From Escherichia phage ECML-359: DNA of 64,000 nucleotides. The stretch lies in the sequence record OL631482.1; one strand, written 5' to 3'. The translations under genes and the position numbers were made by a program. The notes below the pieces were generated by a model that ran no database searches, had not been told where the DNA came from, and saw only the letters and a list, made by a program, of their open reading frames with translations. Positions 2,613 to 56,100 of the stretch are shown here, in pieces (the stretch's first letter is position 1; each line of letters opens with the position of its first letter).

Positions 2613-2756
2613 TTATCATCGCTTAGAATGAATTAATCAGTTAGAAACCGTAGAACCATTATACAGTGGTATAAATAAAAGCATAATCGGTTCTACGGGC
2701 TCCTGTGGTTGATTCTGGGAAGCCATTATCTTGAGATGATGAATCATATTACCTAG

Positions 2757-11720: not shown

Positions 11721-12723
11721 CACTAATTAATGCAATCCATACATGTCTTAATGTTTCTTTTACATTTGCGATAAGTTGCTTTTTAACTTCAACAGGATTT
11801 TCTGTCTGGGTTAATTCAAGTCCTTCACGACCCGCTTCTTCCAGGATATCCTGAACAGTCAAACCCATTACCTTCCCAAAATCCTTCGGCGATACTTCCC
11901 CAATCTTACTGATAACATTGTTAATACGGTTGACAGTCACATAATCAGTAAACTTCCATAAAACATCCAGGTCTTCCTGGGACAACACAACAGCAGCCTT
12001 AATAGGCTTATCAGACTTTTTCTTTTCGCTGAATTTAGAGTTCTTACATTTAATCGCTACACGCTCGCCGTTAGGTAACCATGCAGGAACATCAGGTTTT
12101 AATACAAATCCTTCAGCAGTGAATACTTTACCTTCCACCTTTGCATCAAAATCAGTGGTATTTGCTGTAGTCAATCCTGCGTTATCCACTGTAAAATTGT
12201 AATCAGGGACCACAGAATCCAGGTCATTAGGGAGCTTAATCAAGTCTTCAAAGCTTCCGGTAGCCAGGCGCGGAGCAACTTTAAACTTATGAATAATACA
12301 AAAGGCTTCCATCAGTGTGTCAGTCAGGACGGATTCAGTTCCATCTTCTTTAGTAACGCGAATATCAAACACATAAAAATCTTTATCACCGTAATCCACA
12401 TTCTTCTGGATACCTGCCCCGGCAAACTCACCATAAATCTGATATGCCTGGTAATTAATATCCTGCAAAAGTTTCTGCACAGATTTAATAGAATCTGCGT
12501 AGTTCTTTAATACAATTTCATAACCATAGAAATCTTCTGCAGGTAGGATAGGTCCAGTGCGTTTCGCGCATGTCACATTGTCTTGTTCAATGATTAATGA
12601 AAAGTTGGTACCATGAATTTTCTCACGAGCTACCCATTCACCGCTGGTGAAGCCTTGCAGGCGAATCTTTTCAATGAACTTGTTATTATAGTGATTTTCA
12701 AGGCTGTTGTATTTCTTAAACAT
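11716..12723 (-). CDS. rnlB: RNA ligase 2 (RnlB)
   Basis: 335 aa; [19 protein letters not shown]...[10 protein letters not shown] (nucleotidyltransferase lysine motif KxHGxN) matches T4 Rnl2 as recalled. Confidence 0.9.
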
Positions 12724-12820
12724 AATCTCTCACTTTTGATGTTATAAATATCATTATAAATTAGACCCGCTATACTTTCTTTCTTTGAAAGGAATTAATA
12801 GTCACAAAGGGTCTAGAACC

Positions 12821-12846
12821 ATTATACCGCATTTTTATTTGAAGCA
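12821..12846 (-). promoter_or_regulatory. Middle-type (MotA-box) promoter upstream of rnlB
   Basis: Minus strand reads TGCTTCAaataaaaatgcgGTATAATGGTTCTAGACCC: MotA-box-like TGCTTCA about 12 nt upstream of TATAAT; coordinates approximate. Confidence 0.6.
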
Positions 12847-17677: not shown

Positions 17678-18111
17678 TATTTGCCTGCCTCGAATTGTCT
17701 TATTTCTAACATATGTTTAAGTGCGAAACTTCGCGACTTAACACCATCTAATGCAGCGCTACAGAAGTCCTGGAGTAGTGCCCAATACTGAATTGAAGTA
17801 TCAATCTTCAGTATGTTTGAATCTGCTGCCATGACTGTTTTCAATTCCGACTTCTCGTATACATCCATGCATACTTCTTCCCCTGGGTCACCTCTTCCCG
17901 TATAATGGTCTAGTCGTTTTTTCAGTGCAGTTTTCTTCTGAATCTCAAGACGCATTATTTCTTTCTTGCAGTTGGTATACAATCTCAACCATTTGCTATG
18001 CAACAAAACGTTGTTTTGTGTTTCATATTGAAGTTGCGTACCATCAATTTTTAAATCTGCATCTAACTCATCCTGAAAGACTTCTAACTTATATTCAATC
18101 TCTGTTTTCAT
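17677..18111 (-). CDS. uvsY: UvsY recombination mediator
   Basis: 144 aa from the internal ATG (MKTEIEYKLEVFQDEL...); C-terminal half matches T4 UvsY as recalled (KSELKTVMAADSNILKIDTSIQYW...KHMLEIRQFEAGK); the upstream ATG of the track ORF lies within the predicted transcription-start region of a middle promoter. Confidence 0.9.
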   Translation of the reverse strand: MKTEIEYKLEVFQDELDADLKIDGTQLQYETQNNVLLHSKWLRLYTNCKKEIMRLEIQKKTALKKRLDHYTGRGDPGEEVCMDVYEKSELKTVMAADSNILKIDTSIQYWALLQDFCSAALDGVKSRSFALKHMLEIRQFEAGK

Positions 18112-18139
18112 AATGTATCCAATGTAAGGGTCTAGAACC

Positions 18140-18166
18140 ATTATACAGCCATAAAATTAAAGCATT
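18140..18166 (-). promoter_or_regulatory. Middle-type (MotA-box) promoter upstream of uvsY
   Basis: Minus strand reads aaTGCTTTAattttatggctgTATAATGGTTCTAGACCC; same cassette as at rnlB. Confidence 0.6.
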
Positions 18167-34568: not shown

Positions 34569-35149
34569 TATTCACCACAAAATTCGTTAATGTTTTCCCA
34601 GTTCAATTTGTCTAGACTACGCTTAGGCACATTGAACACCTCAATTCCCGCGTTCTTCAGGATATCATCCCAACCAGGAATATTCTTATCATACGTTTCA
34701 CAGTAAACCAATTTCTTGATTCCTGATTGAGAAATTGCCTTTGCACAGTCAGGACAAGGGGAAAGCGTCACATACATAGTAGCGCCTTCAATTGACGAAC
34801 CCATCCTTGCTGCAAACAGAATTGCATTAAGCTCAGCATGGATTTCGTTGTTCTTTGACCAGGCAGAATGGGCTTCGCGATGGGCTTTCGCCAATACAAA
34901 ACGGTCAACATTACTGAATCTCACACATTCTGGCTTGTGACCGGGGACGAGAACGGGTTTAGGTTTATTCAGTAACCAACCTTGCTCTTCCGCATGCTCG
35001 CAACAGTTGACCCCACCTGCAGGGGAACCATTATACCCTGTAGAAATAATGCGCCCATTCTTTTCAATAACAGCTCCCACTTTCCAGGAGCAACATTTGG
35101 ATTCTTGAGATACAAGGTATGCGATTTGCAGAACAGTAGTTGGTTTCAT
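34568..35149 (-). CDS. cd: dCMP deaminase
   Basis: 193 aa; cytidine/deoxycytidylate deaminase zinc motifs (CAE...PCxxC: VNCCEHAE, LSPCPDCA). Confidence 0.9.
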   Translation of the reverse strand: MKPTTVLQIAYLVSQESKCCSWKVGAVIEKNGRIISTGYNGSPAGGVNCCEHAEEQGWLLNKPKPVLVPGHKPECVRFSNVDRFVLAKAHREAHSAWSKNNEIHAELNAILFAARMGSSIEGATMYVTLSPCPDCAKAISQSGIKKLVYCETYDKNIPGWDDILKNAGIEVFNVPKRSLDKLNWENINEFCGE

Positions 35150-36608: not shown

Positions 36609-36654
36609 TTCTTTTCTCGCTTAGTTATTGGGGTTATCCAAAGGACCTAGACCC

Positions 36655-36681
36655 ATTATAACATAAAATTTTTAAAGCGTT
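36655..36681 (-). promoter_or_regulatory. Middle-type promoter cassette upstream of ORF 36330-36608
   Basis: Minus strand reads CGCTTTAaaaattttatgtTATAATGGGTCTAGGTCC; variant of the rnlB/uvsY cassette. Confidence 0.5.
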
Positions 36682-53146: not shown

Positions 53147-56100
53147 ATGGCCGATATTTTAAAACCAGCATTCAGAGCAACATCCGGTCTCGATGCTGCT
53201 GGTGAGAAAGTCATTAATGTCGCAAAAGCTGATTACTCAGTTTTATCAGACGGCGTTAACGTAGGTTTCTTTATAGAAGAAAACACAGTTCAACAATATG
53301 ATGCAACACGCGGATACAAAAAGAACTTTGCAGTTATTAATGATAACCGTATTTGGGTTGCTCAACGTGATATTCCGGCACCAGCTGGAGCATTTACCCC
53401 TCAGTATTGGTTAGCAACTCGTACTGACCCGAAATGGGAAACTGTTGCATCTCCAACTCGTCAGCTTAGCTCCGGGGAATTTATCGCAGTCGACTCAGCT
53501 GCAAGCTTTACCACATTTACATTGCCTCCGAACCCGACTGATGGTGATACCATCGTTATTAAAGATATCGGCGGTAATACCGGTTATAATGAAATTAAAA
53601 TCCAGTCAAGCAACGTGCCTGGCCAAGGTAACCAAAAGATTGTTCGCTTTGGTAATCAGTATTCAGAAGTTTTAATTACCAAACCATTCTCTTATAACAT
53701 GCTTATCTTTTCAAACCGCTTATGGCAATTTTGGGAAGCAGGTAACGAAGAACGTGGTATCAGAGTAGAACCGTCGACCGGACGTTTCCATGCACAAGCT
53801 GGCGACTTTATTATGCGTCGTTATACAACTGGTGCACCGATTACTTTCATTCTTCCTAAGTATGCAAACCAGGGTGATATTGTCAAATCTGTTGATATCG
53901 ATGGCATGGGGCCAACGTTCCACCTGATGGTTGAAACCTTTGACACCAGTTCCAGTCTTGGTAAAGCTGGCCAGCATCAAATGGAATTCCGTACCACAGG
54001 TGATGGTTTCTTCGTTTATAATGCTGCCGAAAAACTCTGGTATGTTTGGGACGGTGATTTTAAAACTCGTCTTCGCGTTATTCGCGACAGCGTTAAACTT
54101 TTACCAAACGAAAGTGTCATTGTATTTGGCGAAGATAACTCAACTCCAGCAACGATTAATATCGATTTGCCAACTAATGTTTTGCAAGGCGACATTGTTA
54201 AAATTGCATTGAACTATCTCCGTAAATCACAGACTGTTAATATAAGAGCTGCTGTTGGCGATAAGATTGCAACTGACATTAAATTACTGCAATTCCCTAA
54301 ACGTTCCGAGTATCCACCAGATACAACTTGGGTGCTGGTTGATTCATTGACCTTTAATGGCAACATCAGTTATACTCCGGTTATTGAATTATCATATGCA
54401 GAAGATACAGTGTCTGGAACAAGTTATTGGGTTGTCGCTCAGAACGTCCCGACTGTCGAACGAGTTGACTCATTAAATGATTCCACGCGTGCACGTCTTG
54501 GTGTTATTGCTCTGGCAAACCAGACTCAGGCAAACGTTGACCATGAAAATAACCCAGAAAAAGAACTCGCAATTACCCCTCAGACTTTAGCCAACCGTGT
54601 TGCTAAAGAGAACCAACGAGGCATTGCCAGAATCGCAACGACTGCCCAAGTAAATCAGAACAGTGATTTTGCATTTGTTGATGATGTAATTATTTCTCCG
54701 AAAAAACTCAATGAACGTACGGCAACAGAAACGAGACGTGGACTCGCAGAACTCGCCACACAGCAAGAAACCGATGCGGGTGTAGATGATACCACAATTA
54801 TAACTCCAAAGAAACTGCAAGCTCGCCAGGGCTCAGAATCGCTATCCGGTATTGTAACTTACGTTTCAACGACTGGTGCAACTCCTGCTGCTTCGCGTGA
54901 ATTAAATGGTACAAACGTTTATAATAAAAATACGGTTAATCTGGTTGTTTCTCCGAAAGCTCTTGACCAGTACAAAGCTACTTACACTCAACAAGGTGCG
55001 GTTATTCTTGCGGTTGAAAGTGAAGTAATCGCTGGTACTTCTCAATCTGGCTGGGCAAACGCAGTCGTTACTCCAGAAATGTTGCATCGCAAAACTGCTC
55101 TTGATTCCCGTATCGGTTTAATCGAGATTGCTACTCAGGTTGAAACAGATGCAGGAACCGATTATACCAGAGCTGTGACTCCTAAAACGTTAAATGACCG
55201 TAAAGCATCAGAAACGTTAACCGGCATAGCCGAGATTGCTACGCAATCAGAATTTGATACTGGAACTGATGATACTCGTATCTCAACTCCATTAAAAATT
55301 AAAAATAGATTTAATAATACTGCTCGTACTTCTGTTAATGCATTAAGTGGTTTAGTAGAAACAGGGACGCTCTGGGACCATTATAGCCTGAATATTCTTG
55401 AAGCAAATGAAACTCAACGTGGTACAGCAAGATTAGCGACTCAGGGTGAAGTCAATACAGGCACTGACGATAAAACAATCGTTACTCCGCTTAAATTGAT
55501 GTCGAAAAAAGCCACTGAAAACGCCGAAGGTATTGTTCGCATCGCGACAAACACAGAAGCAACAGCAGGCACATCAAAAGTCTTGGCCATTAGTCCGTCT
55601 GCGCTGAAATATATTGCCCAAACGGAAACAACTTGGGAAGCATCTGAAACACTGCGTGGATTTGTTCGTTTATCTTCCGGTGCAGCTACTTCGGCCGCAA
55701 CTACAACGACGGGCGCGGGATTTACATATGAAAATGGTGTGTATACCCCGGACCCAAGTAAACTGGTTAGCTATGCGAAATCTGGATATGCAGTTTCGCC
55801 TTACGAATTAAACCGCATATTGCAAAACTTCTTACCGATAAATGCGATGGCTGTTAATGCTGAAAAACTGGATAACCTCGATTCGACCCAGTTTATTCGT
55901 CGTGATATTGCTCAGACCGTTGAAGGCGTATTAACCCTTACTAAGCAGACAAATATCTCTGCTCCGGTTGTATCGACGAGCACTGCGGTGTTTACTGATG
56001 TAACGGCTGGTACTTCGACGTTCGGAACTGTGAATGTTGTTAATGGAACTAACAAGTGGAAAATCACTGCTCCTTCCACCGGAACGACAATGACTATTGG

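What the first reader, a model, noticed from the sequence alone, without database searches (positions are those of the whole stretch)
12811..12846. Recurrent middle-promoter cassette ending in a near-palindromic GGTTCTAGACC
At rnlB (about 12811-12846), uvsY (about 18131-18166) and in a variant at 36643-36681, the minus strand reads MotA-box-like TGCTT[CT]A, about 12 nt, TATAAT, immediately followed by GGTTCTAGACCC (variant GGGTCTAGGTCC). The box and spacing fit T4 middle promoters, but the conserved near-palindrome at the transcription start is not part of that consensus. It could be an operator for a dimeric regulator or a conserved 5' RNA hairpin.
Basis: partly seen in the sequence, partly recalled or inferred. 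Interest (0 to 1): 0.5.

Follow-up and report, generated by a model that had tools for sequence, protein, structure and literature searches.

The report
Extended start-site element of middle promoters
The repeated "palindrome" is real, but it is the start-site part of a conserved sub-family of T4-type middle promoters, which includes the counterparts of T4's two promoter-driven replication origins; transcription should begin in its centre, so it cannot be an RNA hairpin and is unlikely to be a separate operator.

Summary
The window comes from a Gaprivervirus, an SP18/VR20-like T4-type coliphage. The reported cassette is present at all three sites and is far beyond chance. All five read MotA box, 12-13 nt, TATAAT, GGNYCY, A.

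The same family sits at orthologous places in T4, JS98 and Citrobacter phage Merlin. In T4 it includes PuvsY (oriF), P34i (oriG) and PnrdC.7. Their mapped starts are the A seven bases after TATAAT.

By homology, the window's transcripts start at the central A of TCT-A-GA. Half of the palindrome is therefore untranscribed, which excludes an RNA hairpin.

What is conserved across genera is a -6 to +9 element, G-G-N-Y-C-T-A-R-R-N-Y-C-C-T-T. The dyad symmetry is not conserved: T4 spells it TCTAAGTCC, JS98 TCTAGGTYC and Gaprivervirus TCTAGACC. The element occurs only directly after a -10 hexamer.

Best reading: an extended core-promoter element of a paralogous promoter family, homogenised within each genome. 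The consensus descriptions I could read end at the -10 hexamer; the primary promoter papers were not held. A phage factor that co-evolves with the element, or a link to origins, is not excluded.

The parts
12806..12846 (-). Cassette upstream of rnlB. MotA box TGCTTCA 12846-12840, 13-nt spacer, -10 TATAAT 12826-12821, start element GGTTCT-A-GACCCTTT 12820-12806. The inferred start is A at 12814.
   Evidence: gene context from SP18 and VR20 annotation
18125..18164 (-). Cassette upstream of uvsY, the positional orthologue of T4 PuvsY/oriF. MotA box TGCTTTA 18164-18158, 12-nt spacer, TATAAT 18145-18140, start element 18139-18125. The inferred start is A at 18133. The likely uvsY start codon is the ATG at 18111.
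   Evidence: the T4 rep_origin oriF annotation
36640..36679 (-). Cassette upstream of cd.3. MotA box CGCTTTA 36679-36673, 12-nt spacer, TATAAT 36660-36655, start element GGGTCT-A-GGTCCTTT 36654-36640 (the JS98-type spelling). The inferred start is A at 36648. CAATAAC follows at about +19.
2643..2683 (-). MotA box TGCTTTT 2683-2677, 13-nt spacer, TATAAT 2663-2658, GGTTCT-A-CGGTTTCT. The inferred start is A at 2651. There is no credible ORF downstream.
   Evidence: also present in VR20 and JS98, absent in T4
55365..55405 (-). It is the orthologue of T4 P34i, the promoter of origin oriG/ori(34). MotA box TGCTTCA 55405-55399, 13-nt spacer, TATAAT 55385-55380, GGTCCC-A-GAGCGTCC. The inferred start is A at 55373.
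12763..12768 (-). GGGTCT in the rnlB leader, complementary to the first six transcribed bases AGACCC (12814-12809). It closes a 5'-terminal helix. This is specific to the rnlB site.

Best explanation
The sites are MotA/AsiA-dependent middle promoters of a T4-type phage. They belong to a conserved, paralogous sub-family in which conservation runs on past the -10 hexamer, through the discriminator (-6 to -1), the start base and roughly the first nine transcribed bases: TATAAT G-G-N-Y-C-T A(+1) R-R-N-Y-C-C-T-T.

MotA binds the box near -30 and sigma-70 region 2 binds TATAAT. The G-G at -6/-5 is placed where sigma region 1.2 contacts the non-template strand. C-T-A fixes initiation at the A seven bases after the hexamer. 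A pyrimidine-rich initial transcribed stretch follows.

The 'palindrome' GGTTCT|AGACC is the Gaprivervirus spelling of this element. Its left arm is promoter DNA and its right arm is the 5' end of the RNA (AGACCC...).

What is shown: the family, its fixed register after the -10, its conservation across genera, and the orthology to mapped T4 promoters. What is inferred: the start base in this phage, the RNA polymerase contacts, and the idea that the element tunes open-complex stability, start selection or promoter escape.

Copies within one genome resemble each other more than they resemble their orthologues, so the family is also homogenised within each lineage, by short-patch recombination or by co-evolution with a reader. 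Two of the five window members (uvsY, gene 34) are homologues of the promoters that prime T4 origins oriF and oriG by R-loops. Two (18/19 and gene 34) can only make non-coding antisense RNA.
For: 1. Statistics: 3 hits against 0.11 expected, and 5 against 0.04.
2. The whole VR20 genome holds 8 members, each with a MotA box. T4 holds 5 and JS98 holds 7, at orthologous places: srd/modA, nrdC.6-7, the gene 3/2 spacer, 18/19, rnlB, uvsY, cd.3 and gene 34.
3. T4 PuvsY, PnrdC.7 and P34i have mapped starts at 115371, 53325 and 153011 (PMC2988021 Table 1). In each case this is the A seven bases after TATAAT.
4. Among the 58 mapped T4 middle promoters the discriminator is otherwise A/T-rich. Only these three have G-R-N-Y-C-Y-A.
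5. The uvsY promoter was taken from 31 loci without selecting on downstream sequence. Nearly all keep GGNYYTA..YCCTT, in Gaprivervirus, Dhakavirus, Tequatrovirus, Moonvirus (Merlin) and Enterobacter-phage lineages.
6. The information profile of 32 members shows a low-information spacer, a conserved stretch from -6 to +9, and nothing beyond +10.
7. Exact or near-exact copies of the element occur only directly after TATAAT, in both VR20 and T4.
Against: There are no 5'-end data for this phage; the start base rests on homology with T4. T4, JS98 and VR20 are all coliphages, so the same host RNA polymerase serves them, yet each lineage has its own spelling at +2 to +5 (AGT, GGT, GAC). A pure polymerase optimum would not predict that. 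T4 PuvsY has A rather than G at -5, so the sigma-1.2 argument is not general. The role of +3 to +9 is unexplained. Members were partly collected with patterns that required G-G/A after the hexamer, which inflates conservation at -6/-5; the uvsY set does not have this bias.
Confidence: 0.55

Rival explanations
1. Copy-and-paste relic. The cassettes are paralogous copies of one about 60-bp promoter-plus-leader segment, spread and kept alike by short-patch recombination (gene conversion), perhaps helped by homing-endonuclease traffic in the same spacers. On this view the sequence after the -10 has no function of its own.
For: Spelling is shared within a genome and differs between genomes. Gaprivervirus has TCTAGACC at rnlB, uvsY and 3/2. 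T4 has TCTAAGTCC at uvsY, srd/modA and 3/2. JS98 has GGTCCTA at uvsY and 3/2. Similarity sometimes runs further downstream. CAATAAC lies at +10 to +22 in uvsY (T4, Merlin), in 3/2 (VR20, JS98, Merlin) and in cd.3 (window). JS98 3/2 and 18/19 share CTGGGATAATAGATTAT. Homing endonuclease genes sit beside the 3/2 cassette and in the cd.3-pseT region in some strains. Promoter-based recombination cassettes (PeSL/PmSL) are documented in T4-like phages (PMC4122927).
Against: Orthologous sites in genera whose UvsY is only 56-60% identical still keep -6 to +9, while the adjacent 12-13-nt spacer has randomised. That is purifying selection, not recent copying. The identical patches are only about 20-28 nt long with sharp edges, which is short for homologous exchange.
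Confidence: 0.22
2. Operator. The element is the binding site of a phage- or host-encoded protein, dimeric in the Gaprivervirus spelling, that sits over the start site and regulates this promoter subset. Its specificity co-evolves with the element.
For: Near-dyad GGTTCT|AGACC has 5 of 6 symmetric pairs at three Gaprivervirus sites. A loose GGnnCTAGnnCC frame appears in many lineages. L116 differs from L115 by two adjacent changes that create a perfect GGACTAGTCC. Lineage-specific spelling under a shared host polymerase is what co-evolution with a phage factor would give.
Against: The dyad is not conserved: T4 sites score 3 of 6, and JS98/L111/L112 uvsY sites carry an extra base and look like direct repeats. 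The element is always in one register with the -10 and never free-standing. No candidate regulator was identified.
Confidence: 0.12
3. Origin or primer signature. The element marks middle promoters whose transcripts are meant to stay on the DNA as R-loops that prime replication, as at T4 oriF and oriG. The orphan antisense members would then be further origins or entry sites for the replication machinery.
For: Both T4 middle promoters known to drive origins (PuvsY, P34i; PMC2988021 and PMC3016281) fall in the three-member family among 58 mapped promoters. By my own post-hoc arithmetic that is 3 of 1653 possible pairs, about 0.002. Four of eight VR20 members have no gene to express. The gene-34 promoter is kept inside conserved gp34 codons in three genera.
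Against: nrdC.6/7, rnlB and cd.3 members look like ordinary gene promoters. The T4 record assigns oriA and oriE to other promoters. In T4, R-loop formation at oriF was reported not to need specific sequence, and the unwinding element is replaceable (PMC3016281). My A+T-richness test for an unwinding element could not even single out T4 oriF, which fell at the 56th percentile.
Confidence: 0.1
4. Conserved 5' RNA hairpin formed by the palindrome.
For: Only at rnlB: the first six transcribed bases AGACCC pair with GGGUCU 46 nt downstream. A 5'-terminal helix is kept in VR20, VR25 (in a shifted register) and JS98.
Against: The start lies in the centre of the palindrome, by homology with three mapped T4 starts, so the two arms are never on one RNA. 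The +1..+50 RNAs of all five sites have fold z-scores from -0.6 to +0.9.
Confidence: 0.01

Closest known systems
Bacteriophage T4 MotA/AsiA-dependent middle promoters, specifically PuvsY, P34i and PnrdC.7
   Same: MotA box ((a/t)(a/t)(a/t)TGCTTtA), 12±1 bp, then TAtaaT. The genomic positions match (uvsY, inside gene 34, nrdC.6/7). The same G-R-N-Y-C-Y-A follows the hexamer, with the start at that A.
   Different: The consensus as summarised in the papers I could read stops at -7 and does not mention the -6 to +9 block. Gaprivervirus spells it TCTAGACC (near-palindromic) where T4 has TCTAAGTCC. The window also has members that T4 lacks (18/19 antisense, cd.3, this rnlB site).
T4 replication origins oriF (uvsY) and oriG (34): a middle promoter plus a downstream unwinding element, primed by an R-loop
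   Same: The window's uvsY and gene-34 cassettes are positional and sequence homologues of the two origin promoters. The gene-34 transcript is antisense and non-coding in both phages.
   Different: Origin activity is not shown for this phage. The review literature says oriF and oriG share little beyond a middle promoter, whereas here they share the start-site block with at least three other promoters. Most family members precede ordinary genes.
Sigma-70 discriminator / region 1.2 element (optimal GGGA after the -10) and the core recognition element; lambda PR reads GATAAT GGTTGC A. This comparison is recalled from my own knowledge and was not tested here.
   Same: G-G directly after the hexamer, a 6-nt discriminator, a pyrimidine at -1 with A at +1, and often G at +2.
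   Different: Those elements do not explain conservation from +3 to +9 or the lineage-specific spelling. T4 PuvsY has G-A rather than G-G.
PeSL / PmSL promoter-stem-loop cassettes of T4-like phages (Arbiol et al. 2010; Comeau et al. 2014)
   Same: Short conserved promoter-containing repeats in intergenic spacers that can support recombination. A middle-promoter version (PmSL) was described in phage nt-1.
   Different: PeSLs pair a terminator-like stem-loop with an early promoter and cluster in hyperplastic regions. The cassettes here have no same-strand stem-loop, carry the conserved block downstream of the -10, and sit at syntenic core-genome positions.

Membership tests
T4-type MotA-dependent middle promoter | MotA box (core GCTT within TGCTTtA) centred near -30 | tested here: met
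   The boxes read TGCTTCA, TGCTTTA, CGCTTTA, TGCTTTT and TGCTTCA at the five sites.
T4-type MotA-dependent middle promoter | 12 ± 1 bp between the MotA box and the -10 hexamer | tested here: met
   The spacers are 13, 12, 12, 13 and 13 nt.
T4-type MotA-dependent middle promoter | Sigma-70-type -10 hexamer TAtaaT | tested here: met
   All five sites have a perfect TATAAT.
T4-type MotA-dependent middle promoter | The phage encodes MotA and AsiA | tested here: met
   Both are annotated in the close relative VR20: motA at 162959-163567 and asiA at 160643-160918. I did not check whether they lie inside the window itself.
T4-type MotA-dependent middle promoter | MotA/AsiA-dependent transcript with a mapped 5' end | not testable with these tools
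   Mapped only for the T4 orthologues PuvsY, P34i and PnrdC.7 (PMC2988021 Table 1; aligned).
R-loop replication origin of the oriF/oriG type | Middle promoter at the position of a known T4 origin | tested here: met
   Met for the uvsY and gene-34 sites only.
R-loop replication origin of the oriF/oriG type | [quoted passage not shown] | tested here: inconclusive
   The maximum-A+T scan ranks the window sites at the 91st-100th percentile, but T4 oriF itself falls only at the 56th. The test does not discriminate.
R-loop replication origin of the oriF/oriG type | Persistent RNA-DNA hybrid, or autonomous replication of a plasmid carrying the site | not testable with these tools
   Needs an experiment.
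Operator of a dimeric DNA-binding regulator | Dyad symmetry kept in orthologous sites | tested here: not met
   T4 sites score 3 of 6 symmetric pairs. JS98, L111 and L112 uvsY sites have an extra base. Only Gaprivervirus (5 of 6) and L116 are palindromic.
Operator of a dimeric DNA-binding regulator | A cognate regulator, and sites that can occur independently of the promoter register | tested here: not met
   Copies with 0-1 mismatch occur only directly after TATAAT in VR20 and T4. No regulator was identified.
5' RNA hairpin | Both arms transcribed, and folding better than chance | tested here: not met
   The inferred start is in the centre of the palindrome. Fold z-scores run from -0.6 to +0.9.
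PeSL / PmSL mobile promoter cassette | A terminator-like stem-loop joined to the promoter on the same strand | tested here: not met
   No such hairpin lies upstream on the promoter strand in the stretches read at the rnlB, uvsY and cd.3 sites. The only formal terminator scan, at the 18/19 site, found a nearby hairpin on the opposite strand, after gene 18. The definition is from PMC4122927.

The most novel reading that the evidence does not exclude
The -6 to +9 block is a functional signature read by a phage-encoded factor, or by the phage-modified polymerase, that co-evolves with it; hence the lineage-specific spelling. It marks a special class of middle promoters whose RNAs act on DNA rather than as messages. 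These would be the R-loop primers of oriF and oriG, plus conserved 'orphan' antisense promoters after or inside late genes (3/2, 18/19, srd/modA). The orphans would then be unrecognised origins, or clamp-loading entry sites on the non-transcribed strand of late genes.
Probability: 0.15. Interest if true: 0.75.

Novelty: new variant of a known kind. Interest (0 to 1): 0.42.

Why it matters
T4 middle promoters and the R-loop origins oriF and oriG are textbook systems. The reviews state that the two origins share little beyond a middle promoter, and that no local motif is common to the T4 origins. This scan shows that their promoters, and a handful of others, share a conserved block across the transcription start. 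Some of those others are conserved promoters pointing antisense into late genes, with no gene to express, and are absent from the list of 58 mapped T4 promoters. The block is kept across several genera.

If the block affects open-complex stability, promoter escape or R-loop formation, it would give a concrete sequence handle on why only some middle promoters act as origins. It would also predict new non-coding transcripts in T4 itself, starting near 11897(+) and 76000(+). If it does nothing, it is a clean example of concerted evolution of short regulatory cassettes in a highly recombinogenic phage.

Tried and rejected
- RNA hairpin: rejected from the start-site position and from folding.
- Unwinding element by A+T richness: the measure could not single out T4 oriF, so I dropped it as a test.
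- Exact-motif scan of IMG/VR for the JS98 uvsY spelling TATAATGGTCCTATGG: 22 hits, mostly in unrelated contigs. I estimated this to be near chance and did not test it formally; it carries no information.
- Four non-T4-like IMG/VR hits to TATAATGGTTCTAGACC lack a properly spaced MotA box and look like chance matches.
- Literature search for the motifs as text strings: no relevant paper.
- T4 dRNA-seq start-site table (bioRxiv 10.1101/2024.04.04.588121, 150 T4 starts of which 22 are antisense): the supplementary table is not held, so I could not check starts at 11897 and 76000.
- Miller 2003 and Brister & Nossal 2007 are not held.
- Genome-wide enrichment of CAATAAC is weak. Only its recurrence at +10 to +22 within the family is notable.
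- Coincidence of the five T4 members (11.9, 53.3, 76.0, 115.4, 153.0 kb) with the five origins: oriA 16.8, oriE 79.4, oriF 115.3 and oriG 152.9 kb from the T4 record, and oriC near rI.-1 at about 59 kb from the review. Apart from oriF and oriG the distances are 3-6 kb, and the record names other primer promoters for oriA and oriE. I treat this as unsupported.
- Coding explanation (ATG inside TATAATG opening an ORF): the second codon varies non-synonymously between lineages and the start lies downstream, so I rejected it.

Full report
**What the window is.** A 2-kb stretch around site 1 is 94-98% identical to Gaprivervirus phages such as SP18, VR20 and pEC-M719-6WT.2. Their annotation names the neighbouring genes: rnlB, hoc, uvsW, uvsY and genes 25/26, and cd.3/pseT around site 3. 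The minus strand of the window is the early/middle strand.

**Checking the observation.** All three reported sites read as described.
- Site 1: TGCTTCA 12846-12840, a 13-nt spacer, TATAAT 12826-12821, GGTTCTAGACCC 12820-12809.
- Site 2: TGCTTTA 18164-18158, 12 nt, TATAAT 18145-18140, GGTTCTAGACCC 18139-18128.
- Site 3: CGCTTTA 36679-36673, 12 nt, TATAAT 36660-36655, GGGTCTAGGTCC 36654-36643.

Sites 1 and 2 share an exact 21-mer between unrelated flanks. TATAATGGNTCTAGNNCC occurs 3 times against 0.11 expected. No copy of the 12-mer with two or fewer mismatches lies anywhere else in the window.

One is at 2683-2643, in the spacer between genes 18 and 19, pointing antisense into gene 18 with no credible ORF downstream. 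The other is at 55405-55365, inside gene 34 and antisense to it. The remaining MotA-type promoters of the window have A/T-rich sequence after the hexamer.

**The family in whole genomes.** I assembled the complete VR20 genome. It holds eight members, each with a MotA box:
- srd/modA spacer, on the + strand and antisense to its neighbours;
- nrdC.6;
- gene 3/gene 2 spacer, on the + strand and antisense;
- gene 18/19 spacer, antisense;
- rnlB;
- uvsY;
- cd.3;
- gene 34, internal and antisense.

T4, assembled, has five members at matching places:
- +11885, srd/modA antisense: TATAAT GAATCTAAGTCCTTCC
- +75988, 3/2 antisense: TATAAT GGGTCTAAGTCCCTTCC
- -115383, PuvsY: TATAAT GAATCTAAGTCCATCC
- -53337, PnrdC.7: TATAAT GGTTCTAAGCCCTT
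- -153023, P34i: TATAAT GGTCCCAGAGAG

T4 lacks the 18/19 and cd.3 members. JS98 has seven, mostly spelled GGYYYT-A-GGTYC. Merlin (Moonvirus) has the uvsY, 3/2 and srd members.

**Where transcription starts.** Hinton's review lists 58 mapped T4 middle promoters with their start coordinates (PMC2988021 Table 1). I extracted all 58 from the T4 sequence. For most of them the hexamer falls at -12 to -7, which validates the coordinate system. For PuvsY (115371), PnrdC.7 (53325) and P34i (153011) the start is the A seven bases after TATAAT.

By homology, the window's transcripts begin at the A in TCT-A-GA: 12814, 18133, 36648, 2651 and 55373. The near-palindrome GGTTCT|AGACC therefore spans -6 to +5. 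Its left arm is never transcribed, so it cannot be an RNA hairpin. The +1..+50 RNAs also fold no better than shuffles, with z-scores from -0.6 to +0.9.

**What is conserved.** One search also shows that T4 middle promoters normally have an A/T-rich discriminator. Only the three family members carry G-R-N-Y-C-Y-A.

For an unbiased set I took the uvsY promoter from 31 loci found through the UvsY protein, without selecting on downstream sequence. Nearly all keep the block. Examples:
- GGTTCTAGACCCTT (Gaprivervirus)
- GGTCCTATGGTTATT (JS98 group)
- GGGTCTATGGGTT and GGGTCCATGGGTC
- GGTTTTAGGTCCTTCC
- GGTTCTAGTCCTTCC
- GGTTCTAGTTCCTTTC (Merlin and its group)
- GAATCTAAGTCCATCC (T4 group)
- GGTTTTGAGTTCCTTGC (Enterobacter phages)

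The 3/2 antisense promoter is likewise kept in Gaprivervirus, the JS98 group, the T4 group and two further lineages, and is absent in some others.

An information profile of 32 members shows the MotA box, an uninformative spacer, G at -14/-13, the hexamer, and then a conserved -6 to +9 block (G G t T C T A g G t C c T T). Nothing is conserved beyond +10. Positions -6 and -5 are partly inflated by how I collected members.

The element occurs only in register with a -10. In VR20 and T4, copies with zero or one mismatch are all directly after TATAAT.

**Palindrome or not.** Counting symmetric pairs around -1/+1 gives these scores:
- Gaprivervirus rnlB, uvsY and 3/2: 5 of 6
- window cd.3 and JS98 rnlB: 4 of 6
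- T4 sites: 3 of 6

The JS98, L111 and L112 uvsY sites carry an extra base and look like direct repeats instead (GGGTC-CAT-GGGTC).

Two things keep a small probability on an operator. A loose GGnnCTAGnnCC frame is common. And L116 differs from L115 by two adjacent changes that give a perfect GGACTAGTCC.

**Concerted spelling.** Copies inside one genome agree with each other better than with their orthologues:
- TCTAGACC at three Gaprivervirus loci;
- TCTAAGTCC at three T4-group loci, three copies per genome in IMG/VR Tequatrovirus contigs;
- GGTCCTA at uvsY and 3/2 in the JS98 group.

T4, JS98 and VR20 are all coliphages and use the same host polymerase. This pattern therefore points to short-patch homogenisation or to co-evolution with a phage-specific reader.

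Some pairs share more sequence downstream. CAATAAC lies at +10 to +22 in uvsY (T4, Merlin), in 3/2 (VR20, JS98, Merlin) and in cd.3 (window). A 17-mer is shared by JS98 3/2 and 18/19. This argues that the cassettes are paralogues of about 60 bp. Against a pure relic, the spacer next to the block has randomised between genera while the block has not.

**Link to origins.** T4 oriF and oriG are a MotA-dependent promoter plus a downstream unwinding element, and their transcripts form R-loops that prime leading-strand synthesis. The review says the two share little homology, and that no local motif is common to the T4 origins (PMC3016281; also PMC2988021).

The window's uvsY and gene-34 cassettes are clear homologues of those promoters. 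The gene-34 promoter is embedded in conserved gp34 codons (LWDHY, LEAN) in three genera.

Both origin promoters fall in the three-member family among 58. By my post-hoc arithmetic that is 3 of 1653 possible pairs. However:
- other members precede ordinary genes;
- the T4 record assigns oriA and oriE to other promoters;
- my A+T test for an unwinding element was uninformative.

I keep this as a minority reading.

**Literature.** The MotA box through -10 consensus, as summarised in the papers I could read, ends at -7. The primary promoter papers (Truncaite 2003, Stoskiene 2007) are not held, and Miller 2003 could not be fetched. No held paper contains the motifs as strings. The T4 GenBank and RefSeq records annotate nothing in the two antisense spacers, and those promoters are not among the 58. 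PeSL/PmSL cassettes are a different construction, a terminator stem-loop plus a promoter. A review of T4 mobile elements notes that endonuclease insertions can leave antisense promoters (PMC2988022). In VR25 the endonuclease gene beside the 3/2 cassette is on the gene-2 strand, so the cassette reads antisense to it.

**Verdict.** It is a conserved sub-family of middle promoters with an extended start-site element. The palindrome is a local spelling of that element, not the conserved feature. The RNA hairpin is excluded and the operator is unlikely.

The most likely role is as part of the core promoter: discriminator, start selection and initial transcribed sequence. Homogenisation within each genome is layered on top. 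Function beyond that, whether in origin priming, in antisense RNA or through a co-evolving factor, is open and testable.

Noticed in passing
window 18111-18141 (minus strand); VR20 KP007360.1 114111-114575: The longest uvsY ORF, and the VR20 and SP18 annotation, start at the ATG inside the -10 hexamer (TATAATG). That ATG lies upstream of the inferred transcript start. The in-frame ATG at 18111 (MKTEIEYK...) matches where the JS98 and T4 UvsY proteins begin, so the annotated start is probably 10 codons too long.
   Followed up: partly
window 12763-12814 (minus strand); VR20, VR25 (L004) and JS98 (L077) rnlB leaders: In the about 91-nt rnlB leader, the very 5' end AGACCC pairs with GGGUCU 46 nt downstream and closes a 52-nt hairpin. 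VR25 has different bases but keeps a 5'-terminal helix in a shifted register (ACCUUC/GAGGGU), and JS98 also pairs its 5' end. This could be a 5' stem that protects the rnlB mRNA.
   Followed up: partly
T4 NC_000866 + strand 11885-11912 and 75988-76015; JS98 +11207 and +74902; Merlin +10948 and +77671: Well-formed MotA-type promoters point clockwise, antisense to srd/modA and to genes 2/4, and are conserved in several genera. They are absent from the published list of 58 T4 middle promoters and from the T4 records.
   Followed up: partly
+10 to +22 downstream of family promoters: window 36624-36630; T4 115346-115362; VR20 75191; JS98 3/2; Merlin uvsY and 3/2: The heptamer CAATAAC recurs shortly after the start in three independent locus types (uvsY, 3/2, cd.3). 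In T4 it is the repeated unit CCAATAACAA inside the oriF unwinding region. Genome-wide it is not enriched.
   Followed up: partly
JS98 NC_010105 about 74930-74950 (+) and about 99715-99730 (-): The 3/2 and 18/19 antisense cassettes of JS98 share a further 17-mer, CTGGGATAATAGATTAT, that abuts the stop codons of late genes 2 and 18. The whole spacer after these late genes therefore looks like one repeated unit of about 80 bp.
   Followed up: no
T4 -7191, JS98 -39442, L047 (JS98-like contig): Early-type promoters (GTTTACA at -35) have an inverted repeat embracing the -10: GGGACCAGAG TATAAT GGTCCC. This is a different conserved arrangement, and the window has no copy.
   Followed up: no
T4 P24.3 (start 110108) and P52 (start 165227); VR20 -165412: A second small group of middle promoters has a G-rich discriminator of another type, (TATAAT/TATTAT) GGCAC(C/T) A.
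   Followed up: no
VR25 L007 3995-4669; also VR7, UPEC07, P479; SP18, P896 and others near cd.3-pseT: Homing-endonuclease genes are inserted in some strains right next to two of the cassette loci (the gene 3/2 spacer and the cd.3-pseT region). In VR25 the endonuclease gene lies on the gene-2 strand, so the cassette reads antisense to it.
   Followed up: partly
window 35030-35035 (minus strand); T4 -132585; JS98 -133211: TATAAT GGTTC(C/A/T)CC occurs inside the cd (dCMP deaminase) gene in three genera with no MotA box. It is most likely just a conserved coding sequence that mimics the motif.
   Followed up: no
VR20 KP007360.1 132978 compared with window 36654: VR20 has one extra G in the cd.3 discriminator (GGGGTCTAGG, against GGGTCTAGG in the window). 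That should shift or relax start-site selection at this promoter.
   Followed up: no
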